Assembly: GCA_049520855.1 (NCBI GenBank)
Contig: JBEKPI010000001.1
Coordinates: forward strand, 9,625 to 73,624
DNA: 64,000 bases
From: Terracidiphilus sp.
Lineage (GTDB): Bacteria; Acidobacteriota; Terriglobia; Terriglobales; Acidobacteriaceae
Direction of reading: 5' to 3'
Numbering within the stretch: the stretch's first letter is position 1; every line of letters starts with the position of its first letter. Both the position numbers and the translations under genes were made by a program. This document shows, piece after piece, positions 8,013-57,099 of this stretch. The notes under the pieces were generated by a model that ran no database searches, was not told where the DNA came from, and worked only from the letters and a program-made list of their open reading frames with translations.

Positions 8013-8060
8013 TAAGTCTACTTATCGATATTTAACATGTTGAATCTAAAAGCCTTGCTT

Positions 8061-8076
8061 TGGTATGGAACGTGCA
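8061..8076 (+). promoter_or_regulatory. sigma54 (-24/-12) promoter of the PEP-CTERM gene
   Basis: TGGTATGGAACGTGCA: GG-N10-GC with correct spacing. Confidence 0.6.
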
Positions 8077-8304: not shown

Positions 8305-8961
8305 ATGAAGAAACTCGGATTTGCTTTACTCGCATTGGCGGCTGCTCTTGCAACAGCTCCAGCCGCAATGGCGACTGGCGGGGTGCCGATTTATGTCGAC
8401 ATTTGGGGCACTAGTACTGCCAACCCCAACGGAACCAGCGGCGTCGGCATCGTTTCCGGCGGCGGCGTTCTCACGGGTACCTTGGTCGGCGGCTCATATG
8501 AGATCACCGGCGGTACGTTTACGATTGACGGCATGGCCGCAGACTTAATCCCCTACGCAGGCGGAGTCTACCCGGCGCCAGTTCCTTCCCCCGGTGGTGG
8601 TGGGTTTACTTACGACGACACGCTTAGTCTGACATCGCCGTATGTTGACGCTGCGGGCGCACTGCTGTTCTCGATTCCCAGTATGCCGAATACGCAAGCA
8701 GCGCTCTTTTTCTGCTCCAATGTCAGTGGCAACTGCCTTGCCGGCGGCGGCGGCAACGACCTCCTGGAATTCTACAACACATCAACTGAGCTTTACACAC
8801 CCCTCTATGTTGGAGACCCCCCAATCACTGGCTACGACATCAACATGAGCGCCTCGCTGACCCCGGAGCCGTCCTCGTGGCTGTTGATGGGCACAGGGCT
8901 GCTCTTCCTGGTTGGTTTTCTTTATCGGAAGGCGAAGCCCGGATTCAATCAAGCGGCTTGA
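8305..8961 (+). CDS. PEP-CTERM sorting-domain surface protein
   Basis: Signal peptide MKKLGFALLALAAALA; Gly/Thr/Ser-rich body; C-terminal TPEPSSWLLMGTGLLFLVGFLYRKAK; GGAGG Shine-Dalgarno. Confidence 0.92.
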   Translation: MKKLGFALLALAAALATAPAAMATGGVPIYVDIWGTSTANPNGTSGVGIVSGGGVLTGTLVGGSYEITGGTFTIDGMAADLIPYAGGVYPAPVPSPGGGGFTYDDTLSLTSPYVDAAGALLFSIPSMPNTQAALFFCSNVSGNCLAGGGGNDLLEFYNTSTELYTPLYVGDPPITGYDINMSASLTPEPSSWLLMGTGLLFLVGFLYRKAKPGFNQAA

Positions 8962-26367: not shown

Positions 26368-28701
26368 CTAACCGAGTCCTTGCAGAGCAGTCCGCGCGTT
26401 CTTTGCATCCGGCGAGTCGGGCGCCAGAGAAATGGCCTTCTTCAAATGAGTTGCGGCATTGACCTTATCCCCCAGTTTGCCGAACACCATTCCCAGGTGA
26501 TACTCCATAGCAGAGCTGTTCGGATCGGTCTTGACCGCGTCTTCCAGAAGATCGCGGGCAAATCCGTAAGTTCCCTTGTAATAGTAAGCCCACGCCAGGG
26601 TGTCCGCGGTGATCGGTGAAGCCGGCATGGCCTTCCGCGCAGTCTGGGCCAGCGTCAAAGCCACATCAACGTTTTCGCCATTCTGAAGCATCATATAGGC
26701 AAGATTGTTGGCTGCAATGGGCTGCGCCGGCTGGATTTGAAGAGCCTTCTTGTAGTAGTCCTCAGCCTTCTGCTTATCGCCAACCGACTCCTCGAGGGTT
26801 CCGAGAATGGCAAAGGCCGTGGCACTGGCGGGATGATCCTTGGACCACAACTGCCATGCGGCGATTGCACTTGCGGCCTGTCCGCGCTGCACCTGAATCT
26901 GCGCGTAGATGGCAACCGCCTCGCCGTCGTCGGGGTTCATCTCTATGGCTTTCTGCGCGGCGCCGGCCGCCTGATCGAAGTTCTTGCTTCGGGCCTGCAA
27001 CTGAGCCAGCATGTCGTAAAATCCGCTGTTCTTCGGACTCTTGGCGATTTGCGCGTTCAGGCGATCCAAGGCCTGGGCCGGTTGCTTGATTGAGAGATCA
27101 TAGCCAATCAGTTCGCGCATGGCGCCAATCGAATTGGGGTCATATTGCAGAGCCTGCTCCAGCAGCGACGTGCCTTCAGGGTATTTCTTTTGCGCGTAGC
27201 GAAGTTGGCCGAGCATCTGATAAGCCTGCGAGCTTGGCGGCGTGGCGCCGATTGCAGTCTTCAGGTCGGCCTCCGCTTTGTCCTGTTCGTTACGCGACAA
27301 CTCCACTGCAGCGCGCCATACATAACCGCTGGGGTAACGAGGCGCGGCGGCAATTGTCTTGTCCGCCACATCGGACAGCAACGTCATATTGCCATGCTGG
27401 CTTGCCATGCGCGCAAGCTCCTCCTCCGCTTCCAATCCGGGCGGATTGAGTTGCGCCGCCTGACGAAGACTCGTTTCGGCCAGACCGCTATCGCCCTTGG
27501 CGAGCGCGGCCTTGCCCAGCCAAAATTGGATGAAAGCGTCCTTCGGGGCATCGTTGGCCGCACCCCGAAGGGCATTGATCGCATCGTCAGGCTTGCCGTT
27601 GTTGAGCAAAACAATTCCGTTCAGCACGGCGACCTGGGGATCCTTGCTATTCTTCTTCATCAGCTCGGAGACAACGCTTTGGGCGGTCCCATAATCCTTG
27701 ACCTGAAGAAGAACACGGACGTATCCCTCCCGCACAGACAGATTCTTGGGATACTGCTGAGAAAGTCTTGCAAACTCCGCCTTGGCCTTGTCGATCTGCC
27801 CCGAGCTATCGTAGTAGTCCGCCAGCAGCCGCACTCCCCGAGGATCGTCCGCGAGATCGTTTGAAGCCTGGCGAAGCACTTCCTCAGCCCTTGCCTGATT
27901 GCCTTGCCTCAAAACAACCTGAGCAAGAGTCTCCCTGGCGCTCAGATTCTTTCGATCCGTAGCGACAGCACTCCAGCATATCTGCTCGGCATCCTGCAAA
28001 CGGCCGCTCTTGATATAGAAAGCGGCGAGCAACAGCTTGGCGTTCACGGATTTTGGCTCGAGTGCGACCGACTTCTTCAATTCGCTCTCAACCATAGAAC
28101 TATTCGCCGGATCGCCCATTTCAAGCAATGCAAGAGTCTCGTGAAGATCCGCCTTGTCGGGGGCGAGTTCCAGCGCGCGATGAATCTCAGTCAGGGCCAG
28201 ATCCTGTTGTCCCCGCCTGGCCGCAATGCGCGAAAGCAACGAGTGAATATCGGCGTTGTTAGGCTGTGCCGCCAATACCGTGGCGGCCTGCGCCTGCGCC
28301 TCGTCGATCTTGCCCCCGGCAAGGAGCAAGTTTCCCAGATCGGTCCGCGCTTTGTAGTTCTCCGGCTGCAGGTACACCGTTCGTTGCAGTTCGCCGTAAG
28401 CGGCGCTCATCGCACCCATATGGAGATAAGTCTGCGACAGGGCGTAATGCGCATCGGCAAAGTTCTTGTCAATCTTCAAGGCGTTGGAAAACTGAATGGC
28501 AGCTTCCCTGTCCTTGCCAAGAGCGCTATACTTCTGGCCGCTTTCCAGATATTTATGCTTTCGGACGTTTGGATCGCGGAAGCATCCGGACAATATGGAA
28601 AGCGACAAAAAGAGAGTAACCACTGCAAGAGCAGCGCGGCCGTTCCGCGATCTCCTACTGCCATCGAAGCCGGATTGAAATGCCTTGAATCTGCTTTCCA
28701 T
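26368..28701 (-). CDS. TPR-repeat lipoprotein (PrsT-like, PEP-CTERM system)
   Basis: Lipobox LSGC after a hydrophobic stretch; many TPR units; C-terminal AANNLAY, ADTLAWAYY, YHLGM. Confidence 0.8.
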   Translation of the reverse strand: MESRFKAFQSGFDGSRRSRNGRAALAVVTLFLSLSILSGCFRDPNVRKHKYLESGQKYSALGKDREAAIQFSNALKIDKNFADAHYALSQTYLHMGAMSAAYGELQRTVYLQPENYKARTDLGNLLLAGGKIDEAQAQAATVLAAQPNNADIHSLLSRIAARRGQQDLALTEIHRALELAPDKADLHETLALLEMGDPANSSMVESELKKSVALEPKSVNAKLLLAAFYIKSGRLQDAEQICWSAVATDRKNLSARETLAQVVLRQGNQARAEEVLRQASNDLADDPRGVRLLADYYDSSGQIDKAKAEFARLSQQYPKNLSVREGYVRVLLQVKDYGTAQSVVSELMKKNSKDPQVAVLNGIVLLNNGKPDDAINALRGAANDAPKDAFIQFWLGKAALAKGDSGLAETSLRQAAQLNPPGLEAEEELARMASQHGNMTLLSDVADKTIAAAPRYPSGYVWRAAVELSRNEQDKAEADLKTAIGATPPSSQAYQMLGQLRYAQKKYPEGTSLLEQALQYDPNSIGAMRELIGYDLSIKQPAQALDRLNAQIAKSPKNSGFYDMLAQLQARSKNFDQAAGAAQKAIEMNPDDGEAVAIYAQIQVQRGQAASAIAAWQLWSKDHPASATAFAILGTLEESVGDKQKAEDYYKKALQIQPAQPIAANNLAYMMLQNGENVDVALTLAQTARKAMPASPITADTLAWAYYYKGTYGFARDLLEDAVKTDPNSSAMEYHLGMVFGKLGDKVNAATHLKKAISLAPDSPDAKNARTALQGLG

Positions 28702-28793
28702 CGTCGTCCATCCTTTCAGCTTGTCACTCGAGCGGCTACCATTTGAAGCCGCTGGCTTAGCCACGCCGCCGTTCCCTGCTCCATTCATGGCGC

Positions 28794-29435
28794 TCAGTCA
28801 GGGACAAATCGCGGCAGCAAGGGCGCAAGTTGCCCGGTGAATGTCTCGGCGCGTTTTCTAGCGGTCTCCACGTCATCGCTTGAAGAGATCGGCGTAATCA
28901 CCCGGACAAGCGCCGCATCCGTTCGATTCAGCCGAATTGCATCAGCGACCATGTATATCTTTGCCATATATTCGTTTGCCACGCTACGCCCGTGCGCCTG
29001 GTACCAGTAGATAACGAACTGCCTCGCATCGCCGTTAGCAATAATGTATTCTCCGACACGGTGGGGCCTGCCATTTACGTCAATCAGATTGACGTATTTA
29101 GAAGACTCAAAGACCCAACCGGCTCCTGGCAAGCAATGCTTAGGAGAATGAATGGTTTGGCCGGTCCTCTGGGTGGGAAAATAGGCGATGAACAGACTGA
29201 TCGGCAATGCCTGTGAGCCTTGGGTATAAATCCGCGAAAGAAAGTCTCCAGCCCCAAGAACATCAAGGGTCTGCTGGTCGAGTTGCTGATCGCTTCCAAT
29301 CCGTCCCGCTATCTCGCTCGGAAACTGCGACAAGGCCTCGCTTGGGGGATTCCGATCGGCATTGGGGCGCGAATGAAGCAGGATCACTGTTCCGGCAAGC
29401 AGCAGGACCGAAGCCCAAAAGCGAAGGTTCTTCAT
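28794..29435 (-). CDS. epsI: EpsI family exosortase-associated protein
   Basis: IHSPKHCLPGAGW, YWYQAHGR, DAALVRV; ATGA overlap with the exosortase. Confidence 0.88.
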   Translation of the reverse strand: MKNLRFWASVLLLAGTVILLHSRPNADRNPPSEALSQFPSEIAGRIGSDQQLDQQTLDVLGAGDFLSRIYTQGSQALPISLFIAYFPTQRTGQTIHSPKHCLPGAGWVFESSKYVNLIDVNGRPHRVGEYIIANGDARQFVIYWYQAHGRSVANEYMAKIYMVADAIRLNRTDAALVRVITPISSSDDVETARKRAETFTGQLAPLLPRFVPD

Positions 29436-30319
29436 GTCTGCCGCCTTTTGACCGGGAATAAACCCATTGTGCGGTGGACGAGATAAAGGCACCCTAGAGA
29501 AACCAAAAAGATGACCCAACCGGAGAACTCATGAAAAAAGCCCAGGGCTTTGTCTGGATCCCAGTACTGGACGCACAATCCGGTGCCGAGAATACGCACC
29601 GCGTTGGCTGCAATCGCGATCGGAATGCTGGCCAGAACGAGCAAGATTCTCCGCAAGACGGACTTTTCCATGAAGTACCCATAAAAGACCGACAGCGTGA
29701 ACAGGCTCATCAAGGAGCGGATGCCGCTGCAGGCCTCTGCCACCTCCAGCTTCATCAAGGGAAGCTGGATGACATTGCCATCCCGCAGAACCGGCACGCC
29801 GAAGAGAGGAAGCAGGTCGCTGGCCAGCTTTGAAGCCAGGATCTGCAGCGGAAAGGTTATCTGGTTAAAGATTATTTCCGGAAGCGGAATCGCCAGCAAC
29901 AAGACCGCCAGGGCGAAGCGCAACTCCTTCAGCAACTGCCATCCGCCGAAGCAAAGCACCAGGCCGGCCAGCAGGATGAGCAGAGAGACACGGGAGAGAA
30001 AGAGCTCGGATCCGTAGACCCCAAGGAGGAGGACGACAAGCGCGAAGGCCATAACGGCAATTCCGCTCCAGGCAGGGGCGATGATCGTCCCGAGAAGGAT
30101 GCTTTTCTTATCCCACACCAAATACGCGGCAAACAGGGGCACCAGGAAGCCGTGAGAGTAATCGGGTATCTGCCACCAGTCGGTAGCCAGTTTCCCCAGC
30201 ACCTGATAATAAACCGCCGCCACCAGCAGGCAGATCGTTGCCGAACCCAATAGAAACTGAGCGTTGGATAAGGGCCAGGAGCCTTGGGGCGCCGCAGAAG
30301 TCTGTATGTCTTGAGCCAT
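29432..30319 (-). CDS. Exosortase (EpsH/XrtA family)
   Basis: DYSHGFLVP, EVAEACSGIRS (catalytic Cys), ANAVRI (Arg), FHEFSGW (His). Confidence 0.93.
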   Translation of the reverse strand: MAQDIQTSAAPQGSWPLSNAQFLLGSATICLLVAAVYYQVLGKLATDWWQIPDYSHGFLVPLFAAYLVWDKKSILLGTIIAPAWSGIAVMAFALVVLLLGVYGSELFLSRVSLLILLAGLVLCFGGWQLLKELRFALAVLLLAIPLPEIIFNQITFPLQILASKLASDLLPLFGVPVLRDGNVIQLPLMKLEVAEACSGIRSLMSLFTLSVFYGYFMEKSVLRRILLVLASIPIAIAANAVRILGTGLCVQYWDPDKALGFFHEFSGWVIFLVSLGCLYLVHRTMGLFPVKRRQT

Positions 30320-30369: not shown

Positions 30370-30385
30370 AGCAATCGGAGTGCCG
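30370..30385 (-). promoter_or_regulatory. sigma54 promoter of the exosortase-epsI-TPR operon
   Basis: Minus strand CGGCACTCCGATTGCT, near consensus, 50 bp upstream of the start codon. Confidence 0.75.
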
Positions 30386-30434: not shown

Positions 30435-30476
30435 TGGGAAACCAACTTCCGGTGGTAGTGGAAAACGCTTTCCACT
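30435..30476. promoter_or_regulatory. Tandem GGAA-N6-TTCC palindromes, candidate activator sites
   Basis: GGAAACCAACTTCC (30437-30450) and AGTGGAAA-ACGC-TTTCCACT (30457-30476), centres 23 bp apart. Confidence 0.5.
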
Positions 30477-30613
30477 TTTCAGGACATTCGATGGCATACT
30501 TTTGCCCAATGGAAGGGAACATATCTGCTTTTCCCTTATCATCTCCCGTAGAGAAACGTCCAAAGGTGCCTATCTTCTACAGATAGCCGCCTTCTAGATC
30601 AGTCCCCCCGGTT

Positions 30614-30629
30614 TGGAACCTGCATTGCT
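30614..30629 (+). promoter_or_regulatory. sigma54 promoter of the rightward EPS export operon
   Basis: TGGAACCTGCATTGCT, 26 bp before ATG 30656. Confidence 0.7.
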
Positions 30630-30655: not shown

Positions 30656-31573
30656 ATGGGAAGCATAGCAACCATCCACAACGCGAAACGGCAGGCCAAA
30701 CAGAACCCCCCTATTGAGGCGAGGCTGCAGCGTGCGATTTTGCGGATAGCCGAGAGCGAATGTCCGGTCTTGATCTTGGGCGAACATGGCGCCGGGAAGC
30801 GATTCGTTGCCGGACAAATCCATGCACAGTCGTCTCTGTCCCGCTGCGAGTTCAAGGAGATCTGTTGCAGCGATGTCGACGCACAGGCACTACAGGCCGC
30901 TCTTTCTACCCATGGAACCGTCTATCTGGTTGAAATCACCGATCTTAGCCTTTTCATGCAAGAATTCCTCCTCAACACATACTTTCGCTCGGATCAGCCG
31001 CAAACCTGCCGTCTCCTTTGTGGTTCGAGCCGCGAACTTCTGGAGGAAGTCAAGTCGTGGCGGATGAGAGAAGATTTCTTCTACTTTGTCTCAGCCGTTA
31101 CGCTTCGGATTCCCCCACTACGGTATCGGAAGTCCGAGATTCTCTCCATAGCAGATGAGCTTTTGACCCGGTACTCCAAGCAGTTCGACCGCCCCAAGCC
31201 GGTGCTTTGCAAGGAAAGCATCGAACACCTGATGGAGCACGCATGGCCCGGCAATCTGTCGGAACTTGAGACCGCGATCAAGACGTTCGTCGCCATTGGG
31301 GACCAGGCGATTTCTCTCGCCGCGATTAAAGCGGCGTCGCCATCGGGGAGGTCAAATGGGAGCCGCCGGCATATGCTCTTGAAGGAAGCCACGCGGGCCT
31401 CATCGATCCAGATCGAACGCCAGCTGATCTCCGAGGTTCTGGTTTCGACCGGCGGCAACCGGAAACGCGCCGCTGTCGACCTTGGCATCAGCTACAAGGC
31501 CCTGCTGTACAAACTGAAGCAGATCGAAACGGAAAACCAATCCGTGTCCTCGAAGAATGGAGTCGCAGTATGA
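30656..31573 (+). CDS. Degenerate sigma54-activator-like protein (AAA+ remnant plus Fis-type HTH)
   Basis: GEHGAGK Walker A kept; GAFTGA loop absent; Walker B YLVE; EDFFYFVS; WPGNLSEL; HTH NRKRAAVDLGISYKALLYKL. Confidence 0.8.
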   Translation: MGSIATIHNAKRQAKQNPPIEARLQRAILRIAESECPVLILGEHGAGKRFVAGQIHAQSSLSRCEFKEICCSDVDAQALQAALSTHGTVYLVEITDLSLFMQEFLLNTYFRSDQPQTCRLLCGSSRELLEEVKSWRMREDFFYFVSAVTLRIPPLRYRKSEILSIADELLTRYSKQFDRPKPVLCKESIEHLMEHAWPGNLSELETAIKTFVAIGDQAISLAAIKAASPSGRSNGSRRHMLLKEATRASSIQIERQLISEVLVSTGGNRKRAAVDLGISYKALLYKLKQIETENQSVSSKNGVAV

Positions 31574-32217
31574 AACCAAGAAGCCTCTTCATTGTGGCAC
31601 TACTTGCTCCAGCGCTCTTCTGCCACGCTCAAGACAAGGCGCCCGCCAATCAGCCGGCTGCACAAAGCACGGTCAAACCGGCTTCGGCGGGCACATCCAC
31701 GCCGGCCGCGCAGGACGCGGGCAAGCCGGCTCTGGCGGAAAGCTATGTCATCGGCGCGTCCGATGTTCTTGCGATCACTGTATTCAAAGAGCCTACCCTG
31801 TCGGGCAGCCTTCTTGTCCGGCCTGACGGCATGATCTCGATGCCGCTTCTCGGCGATGTCGAAGCCTCCGGCAAGACGCCCCTGCAATTGGCAGAGGAAG
31901 TTACGACCAAGCTGAAGAAGTACATACAGGATCCTAATGTCTCTGTCGTGCTGAGTCAGATCAACAGCAAGAAAGTTTTCCTGATTGGCGAAATCGCCAA
32001 GACGGGACCTGTGGACTTGACTCCCGGTATGACCTTGTTAGAGGCAATTGCCGCCGGCGGCGGGCTGACGCAATTCGCCAACTCGAGGAAGATGTACATT
32101 CTGCGCAACGAAAGCGGCAATCATCTGAAGATTCCCTTGCAATACAAGCAAGCACTGGATGGCTATGACGCCTTCAATCTCACTCTGAAACCGGGCGATA
32201 CGATTGTCGTTCCGTAG
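31570..32217 (+). CDS. Polysaccharide export protein (Wza/EpsE-like, SLBB)
   Basis: YVIGASDVLAITVF, VRPDGMISMPLLGDV, LKPGDTIVVP; signal peptide. Confidence 0.9.
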   Translation: MKPRSLFIVALLAPALFCHAQDKAPANQPAAQSTVKPASAGTSTPAAQDAGKPALAESYVIGASDVLAITVFKEPTLSGSLLVRPDGMISMPLLGDVEASGKTPLQLAEEVTTKLKKYIQDPNVSVVLSQINSKKVFLIGEIAKTGPVDLTPGMTLLEAIAAGGGLTQFANSRKMYILRNESGNHLKIPLQYKQALDGYDAFNLTLKPGDTIVVP

Positions 32218-32227
32218 GGCTGGCCAA

Positions 32228-33460
32228 ATGAAACCGAGTTACACGCTCCTGGCAATGCTCTTCGCCGTCAGTGCCGCGGCAAGAGCGCAGGTTGAACCCG
32301 CGGCGACCGACGCAGCAGCGCTGCTGGCCGGCGGCACATTGCACTACGATCTGCGCTATTCGCAAACCGCACAGTTCTACGGCGGGCCCGAGGGCGACTT
32401 GCAGCGGAGCGTCGTGTCCGGAGAGGTGGCCTATTCAGGTTCCAAGGAAGCCCTCCCGTTCAATTTGACCTATTCAGGCGGCGATATGTGGACCATTTCC
32501 GGCACGTCCGAGGGATCTGGGGTGTTTCAGCATCTCTTGGTATCGCAAGGCTTTCTTAGGCGCAAGTGGTCGTTCACCGTCAGCGACAATGTGAGCTATC
32601 TTCCGCAGGCGGCGACGACGGGATTCTCGGGAATTCCTGGAGTGGGAATTCTGCCTGGATCGCCCGGCGAGCCGACTCAGCCGATCCTGACGCTGAACAC
32701 GCGGAGCATCAACAACGCAGTGAGCCCGGATTTCACCTATAACCTGGACTACGCAACCAAGGTCAGCATCGGCGGCAGCTACGGAATTCTGCGATTCCCG
32801 GACGGCAACGGCCTGGAAGTCGATTCGATGCAGGTGGCCCCACAAGTCGAAAGGCGACTGGACGCACTCAACTCGCTTACGGGTCAATACGTCTTTTCCC
32901 GCTTTACCTATACTCAATTTGCGTTCGCCATGGAAACTCAATCCGCGCTTTTCGGCTACCAGCGCACTTGGAGCCGGCGGTTCAAGACGACCTTCGCCCT
33001 CGGGCCGGAGTGGGTCCGCAGTTCCGACAGCGCGGCAATTCCCTCATCGACTCATCTCACAGCGAATGCGAATGCCAGCTACGAGGCCAGGTCGACGACG
33101 GTCACGCTTTCCTACTCACAAGCATCCACTGGGGGCGCGGGGGTGACTACGGAGCCCGGAACGCACATCCAGGATGTCAACGGGGCGTTCTCGCGGCAGT
33201 TCGGAAGGAATCTGACGATAACCGCTACCGGCACGTACATGCGCACACAGGGATTGCTAAACGGTGGTTCCATCAACGGAGTGTTTGGCGGTGTGGCGGC
33301 AACGCGCCAGCTCGGCCGGTACATCTCCGTATTCGCGAACTACACGGCAATCAAACAGTCGTCGAGCGCCGCGCTTCCAACGAATGCCATCAGTGGATTA
33401 TCGCAGGTGGCCGCTTTCGGAGTCGGTTACTCTCCGCGCGAAATTCACCTCAAGAAGTAA
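32228..33460 (+). CDS. Putative outer-membrane beta-barrel protein of the EPS locus
   Basis: Signal peptide, alternating Ser/Thr/Tyr/Gly beta-strand pattern, position after the export gene. Confidence 0.6.
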   Translation: MKPSYTLLAMLFAVSAAARAQVEPAATDAAALLAGGTLHYDLRYSQTAQFYGGPEGDLQRSVVSGEVAYSGSKEALPFNLTYSGGDMWTISGTSEGSGVFQHLLVSQGFLRRKWSFTVSDNVSYLPQAATTGFSGIPGVGILPGSPGEPTQPILTLNTRSINNAVSPDFTYNLDYATKVSIGGSYGILRFPDGNGLEVDSMQVAPQVERRLDALNSLTGQYVFSRFTYTQFAFAMETQSALFGYQRTWSRRFKTTFALGPEWVRSSDSAAIPSSTHLTANANASYEARSTTVTLSYSQASTGGAGVTTEPGTHIQDVNGAFSRQFGRNLTITATGTYMRTQGLLNGGSINGVFGGVAATRQLGRYISVFANYTAIKQSSSAALPTNAISGLSQVAAFGVGYSPREIHLKK

Positions 33461-33476
33461 CTAATCAAGGAGGCCT

Positions 33477-35021
33477 ATGCTCGGGCATCGGGAACTGACA
33501 ATGCAGGACTACGCAGGGATGTTGAAGCGGCGATTCCGGCTGATTTTAGCTTCCACGGTTCTGCTCCTGGGGATCGGTTTCGGAATCACATTCATCATCC
33601 CCCCGCAGTACACCTCGCAGACGCTGGTGCTCATCGAGCAGCAAAAGGTTCCCGAGGACTATGTCAAACCCGTTGTCGATGAAGATCTGGGCGCGCGTTT
33701 GGCGTCGATGAAGGAACAGATCATGAGCCGCTCGCGCATACAACCGATCATCGAGCGATTTGGCCTGTACCCCGGCGGCAAATACACAATGGACGACCGC
33801 ATCCAGTTGACGCAGAAGGCGATTGGGATCAACCCGATCCGCTCGGACCAGTCCCATGGGATGCCAGGCTTTTTTATCTCGTTCAAGGCGCAGGACGCGC
33901 ATACTGCCCAGCAGGTGTGCGGCGAGATCACATCGCTCTTTGTCAGCGCGAATCTCACTGCGCGCGAGGATTCGGCAGAAGGCACGACCGACTTCTTGAA
34001 GCAGCAGCTTGAGGACTCAAAAAGAAACCTCGACGAACAGGACGCAAAACTTGCCGCCTTTGAGCAAAGGAATATCGGCAAGCTTCCGGGGCAGACACTT
34101 CATCTCGGGGACATGGCCCTTGCCATGGGCAGCCCAAACGAAAGTACGCTTCAGGCGCTCACCTCCCAGCTGGACGCGACGACCCAGGCGCTGAATCGCT
34201 TACAAGAAAACGATACCCTTCTTAAAGCTGTGATTTCCCAGCAGACGCAGGTTTCATCAAGCGTGGACCCGGCCTCGGGGACATCCGAGGATGCCCTGAA
34301 AACCGAGCTCAAGGATGCACTCCAGCAGCAACAGCAATTGGAAACTCAGTACACGCCGGATTATCCGGACGTGGTTGCCATCAAGCGCAAGATTGCCGGC
34401 CTGCGGGCAGAGATCGCTCACGCTTCGGTCGAACCCGTGAAGGGATCGGCCCCGGTCAGTAATCACGACTCGGTGCAGCTTCTGGAACTCAAAGCCCGGC
34501 TTCACGCGGGGAGTGAGGCCATGACCGAAGCCAAGCAGAAACAGGCTCAACTCGAACAGCAGATTCGCAGCTACGAGGCGAAGATCGAGGCCAGCCCCCT
34601 GGTCGAGGAAGAGTACAAGCAGGTCACCCGCGATCATGAGACGGCTTTGCAGTTCTACAACACTCTGCTGACCAAGATGAATGAATCGTCCATGGCAACC
34701 GCTCTGGAACACCGCCAGCAGGGCGAACAGTTCCGCGTAATGGACGCTCCAAACCTCCCGGACGAGCCCACCTTCCCGAACCGTCTCATATTCTCCGGTG
34801 GCGGCTTAGCATCCGGCCTTATTCTGGGCCTGCTTCTTGCCGCGTTGCTGGAGTATCGCGATACTTCCGTGCGCAACGAGAGGGACATTTGGGCTTTTAC
34901 CAAGCTGCCGACGCTGGCCGTCGTCTCCTACATCGCCGATTTAGGCGCCCCCCGCGAAGCCCGAAAGCGCGGGAGACTCTTCTCTCGATTCACAAAACCC
35001 ATTGAAAGCGCGCGCGGATAA
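33477..35021 (+). CDS. Polysaccharide chain-length determinant / co-polymerase (Wzc N-terminal-like)
   Basis: Two TM segments flanking coiled coils; YTPDYPDV; EQFRVMDAPNLPDEP. Confidence 0.88.
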   Translation: MLGHRELTMQDYAGMLKRRFRLILASTVLLLGIGFGITFIIPPQYTSQTLVLIEQQKVPEDYVKPVVDEDLGARLASMKEQIMSRSRIQPIIERFGLYPGGKYTMDDRIQLTQKAIGINPIRSDQSHGMPGFFISFKAQDAHTAQQVCGEITSLFVSANLTAREDSAEGTTDFLKQQLEDSKRNLDEQDAKLAAFEQRNIGKLPGQTLHLGDMALAMGSPNESTLQALTSQLDATTQALNRLQENDTLLKAVISQQTQVSSSVDPASGTSEDALKTELKDALQQQQQLETQYTPDYPDVVAIKRKIAGLRAEIAHASVEPVKGSAPVSNHDSVQLLELKARLHAGSEAMTEAKQKQAQLEQQIRSYEAKIEASPLVEEEYKQVTRDHETALQFYNTLLTKMNESSMATALEHRQQGEQFRVMDAPNLPDEPTFPNRLIFSGGGLASGLILGLLLAALLEYRDTSVRNERDIWAFTKLPTLAVVSYIADLGAPREARKRGRLFSRFTKPIESARG

Positions 35022-35023
35022 CT

Positions 35024-35956
35024 ATGTACAGATCCTTTTTTGGCCTTCGCGCCCTTCCTTTCGGAGCCAGTCCAGATCCGCGGTTTCTCTTTCTGAGGCC
35101 GCAGATCAGAGAGGCGCTTGCCTGCCTGCAATACGGCATCGCGGCGCGCAAGGGATTTGTGGTAATGACGGGAGAGGTAGGAACAGGAAAGACGACCCTT
35201 CTTAAGACCGTCCTGGGCACCTTCGCCAAGGGACGCATTGCGACGGCCTTCGTCTTCAATCCTCGGCTCGATGTACTCGATTTTTTTGAGTTCGTGCTCA
35301 CGGACTTTGGCATTCCGCCCAAGACGCGGACCAAGTCGGGCATGCTGTTGCAGTTGAATAGCTGGCTCATCGAGCGCTATCGAGCTCAGCAGTTGACCGC
35401 CATCGTGGTCGATGAAGCGCAGAATCTCTCCTGGGAACTTCTCGAAGAGATTCGCTTGCTGACCAATCTCGAAACCTCATCCGAGAGGCTGGTGCAGATT
35501 GTCCTTTCAGGCCAGCCCGAGCTCGAGGAGAGACTTCACCACCCCAGCGTTCGCCAGCTTCGCCAGCGCATTTCTCTGTGGTGCAAGACGCAGCCGTTGA
35601 GCGCCGAAGAGACGCAGGCCTACATTGCCGAGAGATTGCGCATCGCCGGAGCAAGCCAGCCGGTTCTGCTGCCCGAAGCGGCCGAGCTTGTCCATTTCTA
35701 CTCGAAAGGCATTCCCCGCATCGTCAATCTGATATGCGAACATGCCTTGATCAGCGCTTATGCGGAACAGATCAGGCCGATTCCAGCGTATATCGTTGAG
35801 TCGGTCGGCCTGGAACTCGACCTCGTCCAGCATCCTTTCACAATCTCGCCATCGGCTATGCAGGGTTTAATGGAGCGTAATCGTCATGCAAACGTGCCCG
35901 ACGCCGCTTCCTCCACCATCGAGCACGCCGATTCACTGAAGGAACGTGAAATATGA
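35024..35956 (+). CDS. ExeA-like AAA ATPase (PEP-CTERM locus type)
   Basis: GEVGTGKTT, VVDEAQNL, LSGQPEL, GIPRIVNLICEHAL. Confidence 0.88.
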   Translation: MYRSFFGLRALPFGASPDPRFLFLRPQIREALACLQYGIAARKGFVVMTGEVGTGKTTLLKTVLGTFAKGRIATAFVFNPRLDVLDFFEFVLTDFGIPPKTRTKSGMLLQLNSWLIERYRAQQLTAIVVDEAQNLSWELLEEIRLLTNLETSSERLVQIVLSGQPELEERLHHPSVRQLRQRISLWCKTQPLSAEETQAYIAERLRIAGASQPVLLPEAAELVHFYSKGIPRIVNLICEHALISAYAEQIRPIPAYIVESVGLELDLVQHPFTISPSAMQGLMERNRHANVPDAASSTIEHADSLKEREI

Positions 35957-36861
35957 GCCGTATATACGATGCGCTTCAAAGAGCCGATCTTGAGCGGAGA
36001 GCCGCGCAAGAGCCGGAAGTCGCGGAGATTCATGAGCCGTTCGTTGCCCCCGGCGCCGAGGATCTGCCCTCGGCCAAGGCCGGCCTCACCCTCGAGAACA
36101 TCGCCCGGCATCCATGGAACCCATCCATGGCCTCCCTGCCGACGCTGACCGACGGCGGCGAAAGCATCGAGCAGTTTCGCGCTCTTCGATCGCATCTCTA
36201 CCAGTTCCTGGATCAGGGCCCGCTCAAGACGATCCTGATAAGCAGCGGCATGCCCGCGGAGGGCAAGAGTTTTGTCGCGGCAAATCTGGCCATGAGCCTG
36301 GCGCGCAACGAGGCTCACCGCATTCTGCTCATCGACGCCGATCTGCGCGGCCCATCGCTCCAGAACATGCTCGGAGCTCCCAGAATGCCCGGCCTCACTG
36401 AATATCTGGCCGGCGCGGCGGAGGCGATGGACATCCTTCAGCGCAACCAGGCTTCCCGGAACGATGAATCCGGCATCGAAGTGAGCATCCCCAATCTCAC
36501 CTTTATCCCCGCAGGCGCGGGCGGCGAAAAATCTTCGGAACTCGTTGCCAATCACCGCATCGAAGAGCTGATAGCAACCCTTGCGCCGCACTTCGACTGG
36601 ATTCTGATCGACTCCCCGCCGGTCCTCGCGTTTGCGGACGCAATCGACCTTGCCCGCGCCGCCGATGCAGTGCTGCTCGTTGCCCGCGGAGCAAGCACAC
36701 CTTTCGATGTCGCGCAACGAGCGCAGGCTGCCTTCAGCAACGCGCGCATCCTCGGCTTCGTGCTGAATGCCGTCAAGGACGCTCCCCGCAACACGTCTTA
36801 TTATTACGGCTATAAAGACGGCGGATCGTATTGGCGAAAGGATAAGCGGCGACAGGGATGA
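35953..36861 (+). CDS. CpsD/CapB family bacterial tyrosine kinase
   Basis: EQFRALRS, SGMPAEGKS, IDADLR, LIDSPP, C-terminal YYYGY tyrosine cluster. Confidence 0.92.
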   Translation: MSRIYDALQRADLERRAAQEPEVAEIHEPFVAPGAEDLPSAKAGLTLENIARHPWNPSMASLPTLTDGGESIEQFRALRSHLYQFLDQGPLKTILISSGMPAEGKSFVAANLAMSLARNEAHRILLIDADLRGPSLQNMLGAPRMPGLTEYLAGAAEAMDILQRNQASRNDESGIEVSIPNLTFIPAGAGGEKSSELVANHRIEELIATLAPHFDWILIDSPPVLAFADAIDLARAADAVLLVARGASTPFDVAQRAQAAFSNARILGFVLNAVKDAPRNTSYYYGYKDGGSYWRKDKRRQG

Positions 36862-38249
36862 TCAGACTTTTCAATGTTTACTATCCGACCCGGACGCTGG
36901 CGCTGTTCTTTTGCGAAGTGCTTCTTGTTGGGGGAACGTTCTTGTTGGCCGCAACATGCACGTTCCTCATAAGGCCGGATGGATACATCGAACTGATCAA
37001 TGCTCTGATCTATGAGAACGGCTTGCTGAAGATCGCGGGCATTACCGCCTTCACCCTGCTTCTCACGTATTACTTCGACCTGTATGGGCCGCGGCGCATG
37101 TCGGAGAACCTGGAGATCTACTTTCGCCTTTTGCTCGTTCTCGGCGTTCTATCCTTTGTTCTCGCGGGATTCGACTTTCTTTTTCCGGATTTGGCTATCG
37201 GTCCTTATGTCTTTGTCGCCGGCGTCCCCTTCCTGACGATTGTTCTCGTCGTCTGGCGCTGGGCTTATGAGCGGATCATCGGCCTTCCCATGTTCCGCGA
37301 ACGCGTCTACATTTTGGGATGCGGCCAGCGGGCTCGCACAATGGTTGAAACATTGCGCGCAAGCCGCGATGCGGGAATGGAAGTTGTCGGTTGGAAAGGC
37401 GAAAGCGAGGCTCATGGGCAGCGCGACCGCTTCGCCGCGGACCTTCGTGGTTTCCGCAACCAGAGGCCACGCATTGACCGTGTCATCGTTGCCATGGAAG
37501 ACCGTCGCGGATCGATGCCTGTTCGAGAGTTGCTCGACCTGCGCATCCGCGGCGTTGTCATAGAGAATTCCAGCGCGCTGATGGAGCGGCTCTCGGGCAA
37601 ATTGCCGCTCGACGGGCTCGATCCGAGCACTCTCATTTTCACTGAGGGCTTCCGCATGAGCACGTCGCAGCAGCTCTTGCGGCGTATTCTCTCGTTTGCA
37701 GTCTCCTTTCTGGCGCTGACGATCTGCTTGCCGTTTATCCCATTGATCGTTCTTGCTGTGCGCCTGTCTTCGCCGGGGCCCATCTTTTTTAGCCAGACAC
37801 GGGTTGGGAAGCGCGGGCGTCTGTTTACCGCTTACAAGTTCCGAACCATGCGGAAGGATGCCGAATCGCAAGGAGCGGTGTGGGCTACCAGAGACGATCC
37901 ACGCGTCACGCCGATCGGCAGGTTCATGCGCAGCACCAGGCTCGACGAGATTCCGCAGCTTTGGAACGTCCTTCGGGGAGAGATGGCCTTTGTCGGTCCT
38001 CGTCCCGAGCGCCCGGAGTTTGTGCAGTGGCTTAGCGACGAAATTCCCTTTTACGACCTCCGGCACATGATTCGCCCAGGCATTACGGGCTGGGCGCAGG
38101 TGCGCTACCGATACGGGGCAAGCCTGGAGGAGACCAAGCGCAAGCTTGAATACGACCTCTACTACATCAAGCATCAGTCGCTTGGCCTTGACCTGCTCAT
38201 CATGTTTGAGACCATTAAAACGATCATTCTGCGGAGAGGCGCGCAGTGA
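36858..38249 (+). CDS. Priming sugar transferase (undecaprenyl-phosphate glycosylphosphotransferase)
   Basis: YKFRTM, DPRVTPIGRFMRSTRLDEIPQLWNVLRGEM, GPRPERP, RPGITGWAQV. Confidence 0.93.
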   Translation: MIRLFNVYYPTRTLALFFCEVLLVGGTFLLAATCTFLIRPDGYIELINALIYENGLLKIAGITAFTLLLTYYFDLYGPRRMSENLEIYFRLLLVLGVLSFVLAGFDFLFPDLAIGPYVFVAGVPFLTIVLVVWRWAYERIIGLPMFRERVYILGCGQRARTMVETLRASRDAGMEVVGWKGESEAHGQRDRFAADLRGFRNQRPRIDRVIVAMEDRRGSMPVRELLDLRIRGVVIENSSALMERLSGKLPLDGLDPSTLIFTEGFRMSTSQQLLRRILSFAVSFLALTICLPFIPLIVLAVRLSSPGPIFFSQTRVGKRGRLFTAYKFRTMRKDAESQGAVWATRDDPRVTPIGRFMRSTRLDEIPQLWNVLRGEMAFVGPRPERPEFVQWLSDEIPFYDLRHMIRPGITGWAQVRYRYGASLEETKRKLEYDLYYIKHQSLGLDLLIMFETIKTIILRRGAQ

Positions 38250-39466
38250 GAATCATCTTCTGGCTGTCGATGCTTGGCATTCTCTACACCTACGCGGGAT
38301 ACCCCGCGGTGATGTGGACCTTAGCGCGGCTGCGGCCGCGGCCCTGGCTGGCCGGCCCGATCTCTCCCAGCGTTAGCATTGTGCTCGCGGTGCATAACGG
38401 CGCGGCGATGCTCCCGCGCCAGATCGAGCGCCTGCTCGCCCTGGACTATCCCAACATTGAAGAGATCGTTATCGTCTCGGATGGCTCAACCGACGGTACG
38501 GCGGAACTGCTTGCTCGCCAGCACCATCCACGGCTCAAGACCATTGTTCTAAATGAGCACTGCGGCAAGGCGGTTGCCGTCAACGCCGGCGTGGCCAAGG
38601 CAACGGCAGACATCATCCTGTTTGTCGATATCCGGCCGGAGATTGCTTCCGGCGCGATTCAGCAGCTTGTGAGCAACTTCGCCGACCCCAAGGTTGGCTG
38701 CGTGGCCGGCGAACTGATTCTGCGCAAGGAACTTCAAGATGCCGCCTCCGCGGCCGTCAGCGGATTTTATTGGCGATATGAGAAATGGATCAGGACGTGC
38801 GAGTCCATTTGCGGTTCCCCGGTTGGCGTCTATGGGGGGTTCTACGCGATTCGCCGCGAACTCGCAGTGCCGCAGCCGCCCGGAATGATCCTGGATGACA
38901 TGTTTCAGCCGCTCTCGATCATCCGCCAGGGCTACCGTTCCGTCCTCGATCCGAAAGCCTACGTTTACGATAGCTGGCCATCGAAAATCGAAGAGGAGTT
39001 TCATCGCAAAGTGCGCACACTCGCGGGAAACTTCCAGCTTTTCCAACTCGCGCCCTGGACGCTGAGCCCCCGGAATCCAGTTCTCTTTCAACTTGTTTCG
39101 CACAAGATCATGCGCCTCGTAGTGCCCTACCTGTTGGTGCTGCTGCTTGTCTCCGCGCTGGCGCTTTCGCGCGGCTCGCTCATCTATGCGGCAGTTGCCG
39201 CCTTTCAGATTGCTGGCTGGACCCTTGCAATCGCCGCCCTGCGCTACAGGATTCCCGTGCTGCATCGTATCGCGGCTCCAGCCAGCGCGCTGCTCGTACT
39301 CAAAGCGGCCGCCGTCGTCGGGCTCTACAGATTTCTCTTCACGCGCGGTCCGCTTTGGAAGATATGGAATTCAAATCGGCCTTCAGCAAGGGCTACAATT
39401 CTTGAAGCGGGGAACTCCGCGCCGCCGGAGTCCTTGGCAACTGCCTCGGGAGATGACCGAGCGTAG
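38246..39466 (+). CDS. Membrane glycosyltransferase family 2
   Basis: VSDGSTDGT, GKAVAVN, GGFYAIRR, LDDM; C-terminal TM helices. Confidence 0.85.
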   Translation: MRIIFWLSMLGILYTYAGYPAVMWTLARLRPRPWLAGPISPSVSIVLAVHNGAAMLPRQIERLLALDYPNIEEIVIVSDGSTDGTAELLARQHHPRLKTIVLNEHCGKAVAVNAGVAKATADIILFVDIRPEIASGAIQQLVSNFADPKVGCVAGELILRKELQDAASAAVSGFYWRYEKWIRTCESICGSPVGVYGGFYAIRRELAVPQPPGMILDDMFQPLSIIRQGYRSVLDPKAYVYDSWPSKIEEEFHRKVRTLAGNFQLFQLAPWTLSPRNPVLFQLVSHKIMRLVVPYLLVLLLVSALALSRGSLIYAAVAAFQIAGWTLAIAALRYRIPVLHRIAAPASALLVLKAAAVVGLYRFLFTRGPLWKIWNSNRPSARATILEAGNSAPPESLATASGDDRA

Positions 39467-57044: not shown

Positions 57045-57083
57045 AGTCAATCCAAAATTCAAGATTCGATTCACATTCCTGTA

Positions 57084-57099
57084 GGCAACTTTCCGGCCA
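57084..57099 (-). promoter_or_regulatory. Possible sigma54 promoter of the sensor-less bEBP
   Basis: Minus strand TGGCCGGAAAGTTGCC, correct GG-N10-GC spacing. Confidence 0.5.

What the first reader, a model, noticed from the sequence alone, without database searches (positions are those of the whole stretch)
30656..31573. Catalytically dead bEBP with the same recognition helix as the active regulator: a decoy?
Seen: the GAFTGA loop is deleted, Walker B Asp is Val (YLVE), the arginine-finger position is Phe (FFYFV versus LYYRL), and sensor II Arg is Ser (GNLSEL). The HTH keeps ISYKALLYK, identical to 57433-58899. It is the first gene of a sigma54-driven operon. Inferred: once induced it competes for the enhancer or poisons hexamers, giving negative feedback. 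Alternative: a VpsR-like sigma70/c-di-GMP-dependent regulator.
Basis: partly seen in the sequence, partly recalled or inferred. Interest (0 to 1): 0.75.

Follow-up and report, generated by a model that had tools for sequence, protein, structure and literature searches.

The report
ATPase-dead activator paralog at EPS locus
The gene encodes a well-conserved relative of sigma-54 activators that has lost the loop that touches sigma-54 and key ATP-splitting residues. It keeps the same DNA-reading helix as the locus's real activator, so it is a working DNA-binding regulator of an acidobacterial exopolysaccharide/exosortase locus, not a broken gene and probably not a mere decoy.

Summary
Observation confirmed. 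ORF 30656-31573 (305 aa) has an AAA+ core, lid and Fis-type HTH. A 21-residue deletion removes the GAFTGA loop; it reads YLVE for FLDE, FFYF for LYYR and GNLSEL for GNLREL. Walker A Lys is kept, and ISYKALLYK is identical to the full-length activator at 57433-58899.

It is not a pseudogene: dN/dS is 0.15 overall, 0.05 in the HTH and 0.16 in the AAA+ core, against 0.04 in the active partner's core.

It belongs to a monophyletic family of about 300-aa GAFTGA-less proteins in Acidobacteriota. These are always the first gene of the XrtA/PEP-CTERM polysaccharide-export operon, divergent from the exosortase gene. The HTH is nearly invariant across the family, while catalytic residues erode patchily.

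Two divergent sigma-54 promoters (30370-30385 minus, 30614-30629 plus) flank GGAA-N6-TTCC palindromes. This layout recurs in orthologues about 40% identical. Genomes with the short protein nearly always carry one full-length ISYKALLYK activator.

Six Terracidiphilus MAGs lack that activator. Their sigma-54 promoters have decayed, yet they keep this gene and the palindrome under equal constraint. A pure decoy is therefore unlikely.

Best reading: an atypical EBP that shares the enhancer with its active sibling, probably damping it here, and also has an autonomous role. New variant of a known kind.

The parts
30656..31573 (+). ORF of 305 aa: short, GAFTGA-less, hydrolysis-dead bEBP paralogue (AAA+ core, lid, Fis-type HTH; no N-terminal sensor domain)
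   Evidence: AF2 model has pLDDT 83.7, and more than 90 over most of the AAA+ core and lid. Best structural matches are ZraR, NtrX and NtrC1. The ATG start is conserved in 14 orthologues.
30779..30802 (+). Walker A GEHGAGKR (G42-R49): Lys48 kept; Arg replaces the usual Glu after the Lys
   Evidence: Lys is kept in 59 of 61 family representatives. The K+1 residue is Arg in 27 and Glu in 11.
30902..30907 (+). Junction (L83|S84) of the 21-residue deletion that removes the L1/GAFTGA loop
   Evidence: No family member (0 of 61) has a GAFTGA-like motif. Walker A Lys to Walker B spacing is 44-56 residues against 65 in the canonical paralogues.
30923..30934 (+). Degenerate Walker B YLVE (Y90-E93): Asp replaced by Val
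   Evidence: This position is V, A, N, I or S among close orthologues, so it drifts freely. Asp is kept in only 14 of 61 family representatives.
31085..31087 (+). Arginine-finger position is Phe144
   Evidence: The position is F, L or H among close orthologues. Arg is kept in 29 of 61 family representatives.
31259..31261 (+). Sensor II position is Ser202 (GNLSEL)
   Evidence: The position is S, T or P among close orthologues. Arg is kept in 33 of 61 family representatives.
31409..31522 (+). Fis-type HTH (HTH_8, residues 252-289); recognition helix ISYKALLYK at 31487-31513
   Evidence: dN/dS is 0.047. The exact ISYKALLYKLK occurs in 44 of 61 family representatives and the rest differ by 1-3 residues.
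30614..30629 (+). Sigma-54 promoter TGGAAC-N5-TTGCT ahead of the ORF and the export operon
   Evidence: Intact in 8 of 8 partner-bearing Terracidiphilus loci. Present ahead of the gene in 10 of 12 deep orthologues.
30370..30385 (-). Divergent sigma-54 promoter CGGCAC-N5-TTGCT ahead of exosortase-EpsI-PrsT
   Evidence: Intact in 7 of 8 partner-bearing loci and 1 of 6 partner-less loci. Also present in L016, L018, L021, L022, L023 and L024.
30437..30450 (.). Palindrome 1, GGAAaccaacTTCC
   Evidence: GGAA-N6-TTCC occurs 6 times in the window against 1.43 expected. Conserved in Terracidiphilus loci.
30458..30475 (.). Palindrome 2, GTGGAAAacgcTTTCCAC (perfect 7+7 with a 4-nt spacer); the presumed enhancer and operator
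   Evidence: Unique in the window and in the whole 3.8-Mb assembly. Conserved in close and deep orthologues. The same palindrome lies 166 bp upstream of a sigma-54 promoter and a PEP-CTERM gene in a genome that has only the full-length activator.
30492..30506 (+). Conserved box TGGCATACTTTTGCC. It is either a third, degenerate half-palindrome (GGnA-N6-T[TG]CC) or an extended -10 element (TGnCATACT) that would put palindrome 2 at about -41.
   Evidence: fixed spacing in most Terracidiphilus loci but absent from deep orthologues. The generic sigma-70 scan found nothing.
31570..39466 (+). Downstream operon: export protein, outer-membrane protein, chain-length determinant, ATPase, tyrosine kinase, priming and GT2 glycosyltransferases
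   Evidence: Overlapping or closely spaced starts and stops.
26368..30319 (-). Divergent operon: exosortase (29432-30319), EpsI (28794-29519), PrsT TPR protein (26368-28788)
57433..58899 (+). Full-length REC-AAA+-HTH activator with intact GAFTGA, Walker A and B, R finger and sensor II, and the same ISYKALLYK helix (PrsR-like but below the TIGR02915 cut-off)
   Evidence: Orthologues were found in 19 of 20 sampled genomes.
55923..57074 (-). Sensor-less intact bEBP with ISYRSLLYK, divergent from the activator above; the two are conserved as a pair

Best explanation
The ORF encodes a folded, selectively maintained 'atypical' enhancer-binding-protein paralogue.

What it has lost: the sigma-54-contacting L1/GAFTGA loop, the Walker B Asp, the arginine finger and the sensor II Arg. 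It therefore cannot remodel sigma-54 holoenzyme or hydrolyse ATP.

What it keeps: the AAA+ fold, the Walker A Lys (so nucleotide binding is possible), the lid, and a Fis-type HTH. The recognition helix (ISYKALLYK) is the signature it shares with the locus's full-length PrsR-like sigma-54 activator.

Proposed mechanism: it binds, as a dimer or higher oligomer, the GGAA-N6-TTCC palindromes (30437-30450 and 30458-30475). These sit between the divergent sigma-54 promoters of the exosortase operon and the polysaccharide-export operon, so they are the same enhancer the full-length activator uses. In this genome, occupying the enhancer with a protein blind to sigma-54 most simply damps sigma-54-dependent transcription of both operons. 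Its own gene is among them, which gives negative feedback. It also has a partner-independent role, controlling the locus without sigma-54.

Shown here: the motif states, fold, selection, synteny, promoter and palindrome conservation, co-occurrence with the activator, and retention after activator loss.

Inferred: binding to the palindromes, competition with the activator, and the sign of regulation.
For: 1. Motif losses and the retained HTH. Confident AAA+/lid/HTH model.
2. Purifying selection: whole gene 0.15, HTH 0.047, lid 0.085, AAA+ core 0.16. The active partner's AAA+ core is 0.042 in the same genus. Catalytic positions vary freely among close orthologues.
3. The family forms one clan (support 100/99). 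All 61 representatives lack GAFTGA. The HTH is near-invariant while Walker B Asp is kept in 14 of 61, the R finger in 29 of 61 and sensor II Arg in 33 of 61. Members that retain the motifs are basal, and the target clade is the most derived.
4. Identical synteny at 43% identity.
5. Divergent sigma-54 promoters plus palindromes in close and deep orthologues. The palindrome is unique in the assembly.
6. The ISYKALLYK DNA pattern occurs in 46 of 121 genomes of the class: usually 2 copies where the short gene is present and 1 where it is not (control: 1 hit). The second copy is a full-length intact bEBP in 19 of 20 sampled genomes.
7. A genome with only the full-length activator has the same palindrome 166 bp upstream of a sigma-54 promoter and a PEP-CTERM gene.
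8. Six partner-less MAGs keep the gene and the palindrome. The plus promoter is intact in 1 of 6 of them against 8 of 8 partner-bearing loci; the minus promoter in 1 of 6 against 7 of 8.
9. rpoN is present in this genome.
10. RNA-run contigs identical or nearly identical to the gene and operon.
Against: - There is no binding, transcription-start or expression-response data, so the sign of regulation is unknown.
- Sharing a recognition helix does not prove identical site choice. Flanking HTH residues differ (21 of 28 identical).
- Retention in partner-less lineages shows that competition cannot be the whole function.
- The partner-less genomes are MAGs of unknown completeness and form mostly one subclade. 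The Fisher tests (about 0.003 and 0.016) are therefore not phylogenetically corrected, although the promoter lesions differ between loci.
- dS is near 1, so dN/dS values are approximate.
- Extra genomic copies of the palindrome in other genomes lie mostly inside open frames without sigma-54 promoters.
Confidence: 0.45

Rival explanations
1. Sigma-54-independent activator. It would work like VpsR, TyrR, HupR or DhaR, binding palindrome 2 at about -41 of an extended -10 (sigma-70-type) promoter (TGnCATACT, 30492-30500) and switching on the export operon. Binding of a nucleotide or c-di-GMP to the hydrolysis-dead AAA+ pocket might gate it. Competition with the sigma-54 activator would be a side effect.
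For: - Most characterised GAFTGA-less EBPs act with sigma-70, and VpsR activates polysaccharide genes from a site abutting the -35 (PMC6158489, PMC3162934).
- Lineages that lost the activator and the sigma-54 promoters must express the operon some other way, and they keep this gene, the palindrome and the TGGTACACT box at fixed spacing.
- Walker A Lys is near-invariant in the family, 59 of 61.
- A PilZ gene sits in the locus.
Against: - The extended -10 box occurs only within Terracidiphilus and not in deep orthologues. It can equally be read as a third half-palindrome.
- The generic sigma-70 scan finds no promoter.
- No c-di-GMP-binding residues could be identified.
- Ancestrally the gene sits behind a sigma-54 promoter and co-occurs with the activator.
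Confidence: 0.25
2. Pure decoy or poison subunit. Its only role would be to antagonise the active bEBP, by titrating the enhancer or by entering mixed hexamers that lack an R finger and L1 loop.
For: - Same recognition helix, a sigma-54-driven gene, and dead trans-acting residues.
- Near-obligate co-occurrence with a full-length partner across the class.
Against: - Six genomes keep it under unchanged purifying selection after losing the partner and the sigma-54 promoters.
- The AAA+ core is only 31% identical to the partner and lacks L1 and L2, so co-assembly is unproven.
Confidence: 0.15
3. Positive co-factor. It would pre-occupy or bend the enhancer, or nucleate assembly of the active bEBPs (including the sensor-less 55923-57074 protein), giving positive feedback.
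For: - It is the first gene of the activated operon.
- There are several adjacent half-sites spaced 23 and 33 bp apart.
- There is precedent for co-dependent bEBP pairs such as HrpR/HrpS (from my own knowledge).
Against: - Loss of the R finger and L1 would cripple a mixed ring.
- There is no evidence of interaction.
- Its persistence without partners argues against an obligate helper role.
Confidence: 0.08
4. Decaying relic without function.
For: Loss of several catalytic residues.
Against: - dN/dS is 0.15, and 0.05 in the HTH.
- Over 100 clusters at 73-91% identity are all intact and about 305 aa long.
- Synteny is conserved across the class.
- Transcript fragments exist.
Confidence: 0.02

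Closest known systems
VpsR (Vibrio cholerae), an atypical EBP
   Same: It is a bEBP homologue without GAFTGA and with a non-consensus Walker B. It controls exopolysaccharide genes and binds next to or over the -35 region (PMC6158489). It is also a structural neighbour of the model (7v2b).
   Different: VpsR has an N-terminal REC domain, acts at sigma-70 promoters that lack -24/-12 elements, and needs c-di-GMP. The protein here has no N-terminal domain. Its gene sits behind a sigma-54 promoter and enhancer, and it is paired with an active paralogue that has the same recognition helix. c-di-GMP binding was not tested.
TyrR / PhhR / HupR / DhaR / NtrX (other atypical EBPs)
   Same: AAA+ and Fis-type HTH regulators with defective GAFTGA that work without sigma-54, as activators or repressors (PMC6158489, PMC3162934). 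NtrX is among the best structural matches.
   Different: All of these carry N-terminal sensory or receiver domains and are stand-alone regulators. None is described as sharing an enhancer with an active sibling, or as part of exosortase loci.
PrsR (TIGR02915), the PEP-CTERM-box response regulator of Proteobacteria
   Same: It belongs to the same biological system (XrtA/PEP-CTERM/EPS), in which an upstream motif plus a sigma-54 promoter precedes target genes (PMC1569441). TIGR02915 is among the best NCBIfam hits.
   Different: The score is 121 bits against a 502.6 cut-off. The protein here has no receiver domain and no GAFTGA. No PrsK is present above cut-off. The full-length neighbour (332 bits) is the better, though still sub-threshold, PrsR analogue.
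Anti-activators of bEBPs (PspA, FleN, HrpV, NifL)
   Same: They are a possible functional analogy: negative control of a sigma-54 activator, often encoded in the regulated operon.
   Different: Those proteins are unrelated to bEBPs and act by protein-protein contact. Here the candidate is a paralogue of the activator with its own DNA-binding domain.
FleQ (Pseudomonas)
   Same: A bEBP that regulates EPS operons from sites at the promoter, independently of sigma-54 and ATP hydrolysis, with its AAA+ pocket used as a ligand site.
   Different: FleQ keeps GAFTGA and its ATPase and is also a true sigma-54 activator. One protein does both jobs, whereas here the two jobs would be split between paralogues.

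Membership tests
Canonical sigma-54-dependent bEBP (PF00158 activators) | AAA+ sigma-54 interaction domain fold | tested here: met
   PF14532 at 1.2e-18 and PF00158 at 2.4e-15, the latter split into two stretches. The AF2 model matches ZraR, NtrC1 and PspF.
Canonical sigma-54-dependent bEBP (PF00158 activators) | GAFTGA (L1) loop that contacts sigma-54 | tested here: not met
   A 21-residue deletion removes it. It is absent in all 61 family representatives.
Canonical sigma-54-dependent bEBP (PF00158 activators) | Catalytic set: Walker B Asp-Glu, arginine finger, sensor II Arg | tested here: not met
   V92, F144 and S202. These positions drift among close orthologues.
Canonical sigma-54-dependent bEBP (PF00158 activators) | Walker A P-loop Lys | tested here: met
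   GEHGAGKR. Lys is kept in 59 of 61 representatives. Nucleotide binding itself was not testable.
Atypical (GAFTGA-less) EBPs: TyrR, PhhR, HupR, DhaR, NtrX, VpsR | bEBP homologue with a defective or absent GAFTGA and a C-terminal HTH | tested here: met
Atypical (GAFTGA-less) EBPs: TyrR, PhhR, HupR, DhaR, NtrX, VpsR | Regulates transcription without sigma-54 (sigma-70 promoters) | tested here: inconclusive
   Indirect only. The gene and palindrome are retained where the sigma-54 promoters and the activator are lost. A candidate extended -10 exists only in the genus, and the generic scan was negative.
Atypical (GAFTGA-less) EBPs: TyrR, PhhR, HupR, DhaR, NtrX, VpsR | N-terminal sensory or receiver domain | tested here: not met
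   Only about 20 disordered residues precede the AAA+ domain.
PrsR (TIGR02915) | Score above the curated cut-off; REC-AAA+-HTH architecture | tested here: not met
   120.8 bits against a 502.6 cut-off, and no REC domain.
c-di-GMP-binding EBPs (FleQ/VpsR type) | c-di-GMP binding to the AAA+ domain | not testable with these tools
   No diagnostic sequence signature could be applied. The only contextual hint is a PilZ gene at 59375-59779.
Short GAFTGA-less ISYKALLYK family of Acidobacteriota (defined here) | About 290-340 aa; no N-terminal domain; L1 deleted; ISYKALLYK-type HTH; first gene of the export operon, divergent from the exosortase gene | tested here: met

The most novel reading that the evidence does not exclude
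This would be a conserved two-paralogue enhancer circuit. A full-length sigma-54 activator and a sigma-54-blind, hydrolysis-dead sibling read the same palindromic enhancer through an identical recognition helix. The dead sibling is encoded as the first gene of the activated operon, which gives built-in paralogue interference (negative feedback or pulse shaping) on exosortase and exopolysaccharide expression across Acidobacteriota. In some lineages the dead sibling has taken over the locus entirely after the sigma-54 arm was lost.
Probability: 0.3. Interest if true: 0.7.

Novelty: new variant of a known kind. Interest (0 to 1): 0.58.

Why it matters
Acidobacteria are among the most abundant soil and peat bacteria, and their exopolysaccharides shape soil aggregation. 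Almost nothing is known about how these loci are regulated.

This work defines a widespread, unnamed regulator family tied to XrtA/PEP-CTERM loci. It proposes its operator (GTGGAAA-N4-TTTCCAC) and identifies the likely acidobacterial counterpart of PrsR.

It also offers a natural series showing how an AAA+ activator degrades stepwise into a plain DNA-binding regulator: the L1 loop goes first, then the catalytic residues. The series includes lineages where loss of the activator coincides with decay of the sigma-54 promoters.

If the paralogue-interference circuit is real, it would be a clear bacterial example of a dominant-negative-style paralogue acting at an enhancer.

Tried and rejected
1. 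Pseudogene or relic: rejected by dN/dS and conservation.
2. 'ISYKALLYK is a generic bEBP helix': rejected. Only 3 of 13 bEBP-like ORFs in the genome carry it, and the reversed-pattern control gave 1 hit against 46 genomes.
3. Membership of PrsR or any named NCBIfam equivalog: every score is far below its cut-off.
4. A bona fide PrsK kinase in the genome: none above cut-off.
5. A wider regulon for the palindrome: the perfect site is unique in this assembly, and the single 1-mismatch intergenic hit (C25) lies between convergent genes. In other genomes, 15 of 19 extra perfect copies have no outward-facing sigma-54 promoter within 330 bp and most lie in long open frames.
6. Generic sigma-70 promoter scan of the control region: nothing found. 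The extended -10 idea rests only on a genus-level conserved box.
7. Transcription-start evidence from public RNA: one peat metatranscriptome gave only short contigs inside the genes, with no 5' end.
8. My first promoter scan of five genome-search loci used the wrong strand, because those loci are not re-oriented. It was redone correctly.
9. The tree did not place the full-length ISYKALLYK group as the specific sister of the short family. The long branch leaves the origin of the shared helix (common descent or conversion) open.
10. The PexR paper (PMC12754779) was checked as a possible analogue. PexR is a canonical sigma-54 activator with dual function and is not comparable.
Full report
**The object.** ORF 30656-31573 (+) encodes 305 aa. 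An in-frame GTG lies at 30638, but 14 orthologues all begin at the ATG. Pfam finds Sigma54_activ_2 (residues 22-155), AAA_lid_14 and HTH_8, and nothing N-terminal. All NCBIfam equivalogs score far below their cut-offs; TIGR02915 (PrsR) gives 121 bits against 502.6.

**Motif states.** I aligned the protein with the two intact bEBPs of the window: 57433-58899 (REC-AAA+-HTH) and 55923-57074 on the minus strand (AAA+-HTH). The alignment shows:
- A 21-residue deletion that excises the GAFTGA/L1 loop.
- A shortened L2 region.
- Walker B YLVE in place of FLDE.
- F144 at the arginine-finger position.
- S202 at sensor II.

Kept are Walker A Lys (GEHGAGKR), Walker B Glu and R138. The HTH carries ISYKALLYK, identical to 57433-58899. 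From helix 2 through the recognition helix, 21 of 28 residues are identical, against 31% identity overall.

**It is not decaying.** More than 100 clusters at 73-91% identity are all about 305 aa and intact, from Terracidiphilus and Acidobacteriaceae MAGs.

| Region | dN/dS, short gene | dN/dS, full-length activator in the same genus |
|---|---|---|
| Whole gene | 0.15 | 0.117 |
| HTH | 0.047 | 0.037 |
| Lid | 0.085 | 0.105 |
| AAA+ alpha/beta core | 0.16 | 0.042 |

These are pairwise NG86 values among 13 Terracidiphilus orthologues. The ATPase core is about four-fold relaxed but still constrained, and the DNA-binding domain is as constrained as in the real activator. The former catalytic positions vary freely among close orthologues: V/A/N/I/S at Walker B, F/L/H at the R finger, and S/T/P at sensor II. 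An AlphaFold model (pLDDT 83.7, and more than 90 over most of the core) has an intact AAA+/lid/HTH fold. Its nearest structures are ZraR, NtrX and NtrC1. Short contigs from a peat metatranscriptome match the gene and the operon, one of them identically. This is weak evidence of expression.

**A family, not a one-off.** A full-library search found about 100 clusters (at 50% identity) of 290-340-aa proteins that align in one stretch, meaning they lack L1. The table gives the state of each feature in 61 representatives.

| Feature | Present in (of 61) |
|---|---|
| GAFTGA | 0 |
| Walker A Lys | 59 |
| Walker B Asp | 14 |
| Walker B Glu | 38 |
| Arginine finger | 29 |
| Sensor II Arg | 33 |
| Exact ISYKALLYKLK | 44 (the rest differ by 1-3 residues) |

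In a maximum-likelihood tree the short family is one clan (support 100/99). Members that keep the catalytic motifs are basal, and the target's clade is the most derived. L1 was therefore lost once, and the ATPase residues eroded afterwards.

A member only 43% identical (P0138) has the same neighbourhood: EpsI and exosortase on one strand, then on the other strand the short gene, Poly_export, an outer-membrane protein and a chain-length determinant. In a sample of 121 genomes of the class, about 25 carry a member. Outside the class, the HTH pattern occurs in about 10 of some 180 sampled genomes of the phylum, from a few other families.

**Context and cis-elements.** The window holds an XrtA/PEP-CTERM locus.
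- Leftward: PrsT, EpsI and exosortase.
- Rightward: the short gene, which overlaps the start of the export gene by 4 bp, then an outer-membrane protein, chain-length determinant, ATPase, tyrosine kinase and glycosyltransferases.

The 336-bp control region contains the only two 1-mismatch matches to TGGCAC-N5-TTGCW in 64 kb. They are correctly oriented for the two operons: 30370-30385 on the minus strand and 30614-30629 on the plus strand.

Between them lie GGAA-N6-TTCC palindromes at 30437 and 30460. This pattern occurs 6 times in the window against 1.43 expected. The second extends to a perfect GTGGAAAacgcTTTCCAC, which is unique in the window and in the 3.8-Mb assembly.

The arrangement is conserved in Terracidiphilus. 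A sigma-54 promoter lies upstream of the gene in 10 of 12 deep orthologues, and in most of those a palindrome sits roughly 125-290 bp further upstream. rpoN is present. The statement 'first gene of a sigma-54-driven operon' is therefore well supported by conservation, though not by transcription-start data.

**The paired activator.** ISY[KR][AS]LLYK is confined to the three bEBPs of this locus among the 13 in the genome. A back-translated ISYKALLYK DNA pattern hits 46 of 121 genomes of the class; the reversed control hits 1. There are typically two copies where the short gene is present and one where it is absent. In 19 of 20 sampled genomes the other copy is a 455-571-aa ORF with intact GAFTGA, Walker A and B, and sensor II, and usually the R finger. 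It generally lies 5-60 kb from the short gene where both sit on one contig.

One genome (G101) has only the full-length protein. There the same palindrome, GTGGAAAATTTTTTCCAC, lies 166 bp upstream of TGGCCA-N5-TTGCA and a gene ending in VPEPG-TM-RRK, a PEP-CTERM substrate. This matches the proteobacterial design of a PrsR site plus a sigma-54 promoter described by Haft et al. (PMC1569441). It ties the ISYKALLYK helix to this palindrome. No PrsK scores above cut-off.

**A natural experiment.** Thirteen Terracidiphilus MAGs carry the short gene. Six of them (the genomes of L001, L004, L008, L009, L012 and L015) have no other ISY..LLYK ORF and no orthologue of the activator. In two of these with long contigs, the syntenic EPS cluster ends without the bEBP pair within 30-40 kb.

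| Loci | Plus promoter GG/GC intact | Minus promoter GG/GC intact |
|---|---|---|
| Partner-bearing (8, including the window) | 8 of 8 | 7 of 8 |
| Partner-less (6) | 1 of 6 | 1 of 6 |

The lesions differ between loci: GC to AC, GG to AG, TTGC to TTTT, TGG to TTG, and 1-bp spacing changes. Uncorrected Fisher tests give p of about 0.003 and 0.016. Yet these genomes keep the short gene with unchanged constraint (dN/dS 0.15, HTH 0.055) and keep palindrome 2. Two conclusions follow:
- The -24/-12 elements are real and depend on the ISY..LLYK activators.
- The short protein has a function that needs neither the activator nor sigma-54.

Caveats: MAG completeness is unknown, and the partner-less loci mostly form one subclade.

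**Mechanism.** The protein cannot activate sigma-54; this follows from the established roles of GAFTGA, Walker B Asp and the R finger (PMC7175178, PMC3162934). The most conserved part is the HTH it shares with the activator, and the only perfect site in the genome lies ahead of its own operon. I therefore infer that it binds the enhancer.

In this genome both arms are intact, so occupancy by a sigma-54-blind paralogue should damp activation of both operons, including its own gene. Retention without partners shows an additional autonomous role.

A conserved box 25 nt downstream of palindrome 2 (TGGCATACT here, TGGTACACT in most relatives) could be an extended -10 that places the palindrome at about -41, the geometry of a class II activator as proposed for VpsR (PMC6158489). 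The near-invariant Walker A Lys suggests that nucleotide binding (ATP or another ligand) still matters, possibly for oligomerisation; this was not testable. I give about 0.45 to the shared-enhancer modulator with an autonomous role, 0.25 to a primarily sigma-54-independent activator, 0.15 to a pure decoy or poison, 0.08 to a co-factor and 0.02 to a relic.

**Comparison and novelty.** GAFTGA-less 'atypical EBPs' are known: TyrR, PhhR, HupR, DhaR, NtrX, HsfA and VpsR (PMC6158489, PMC3162934). The kind is therefore not new. Four things differ here:
- There is no sensory domain at all.
- The family is fixed in position in acidobacterial exosortase/EPS loci.
- It is systematically paired with an active paralogue carrying the identical recognition helix.
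- Its own gene lies under that paralogue's enhancer and sigma-54 promoter.

Five searches of the held literature found no description of this family or circuit. I rate it a new variant of a known kind, of moderate to high interest.

Noticed in passing
L084 (G101:C1) about 575074-575841: In a genome with only the full-length ISYKALLYK activator, GTGGAAAATTTTTTCCAC lies 166 bp upstream of TGGCCAGGGACTTGCA and a 184-aa secreted protein ending ...VPEPGTLSLMATGLLGAAATVRRK. That is a PEP-CTERM substrate behind the same enhancer type.
   Followed up: yes
window 55923-59779: A regulatory island sits at the far end of the EPS cluster. It holds a sensor-less intact bEBP (ISYRSLLYK) divergent from the REC-bEBP (ISYKALLYK), then a DUF6982 protein (58773-59378) and a PilZ-domain protein (59375-59779, minus strand). 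The bEBP pair is conserved as a unit in related genomes and is lost as a unit in six MAGs.
   Followed up: partly
window 7985-8076 and 59928-60010: Two further sigma-54-like promoters: TGGTAT-N5-GTGCA ahead of the PEP-CTERM gene 8305-8961, and CGGCAT-N5-TTGCT ahead of the PilZ gene. They are preceded by a different palindrome type (TGCA/GCAA half-sites), possibly the site of the ISYRSLLYK paralogue. The C-terminus of 8305-8961 is a PEP-CTERM signal (LTPEPSS...YRKAK).
   Followed up: partly
L039 (G065:C7:1644300-1647000): The second ISYKALLYK hit in this genome lies in an open frame of only 89 aa. It may be an HTH-only remnant or a frameshifted activator.
   Followed up: no
G140:C133:3300-5128 and G173:C9:3502496-3504328: Outside the window's class, two genomes of another acidobacterial family carry two ISYKALLYK ORFs only 1.8 kb apart on the same strand. 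The paired arrangement may therefore also exist as a tandem.
   Followed up: no
window 30501-30535: Downstream of the conserved box lies TTTGCCC...GGGAAC (in relatives GTTTCCC-N7-GGGAAC). This is an inverted repeat that could be a further operator or a 5'-UTR hairpin.
   Followed up: no
Several class genomes (G057, G013, G091, G059 and others): Perfect TGGAAA-N4-TTTCCA occurs at 22 places in 27 genomes, against 1 for the reversed control. Most of the 19 copies that lie away from the short gene sit in long open frames without sigma-54 promoters. The enrichment is unexplained; it could be codon or dipeptide bias, or cryptic sites.
   Followed up: partly
window 21678-26246: An ATP-grasp/low-molecular-weight phosphatase fusion and a 944-aa ORF with no NCBIfam hit lie next to PrsT. 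First-stage notes also flagged these, and I did not examine them.
   Followed up: no
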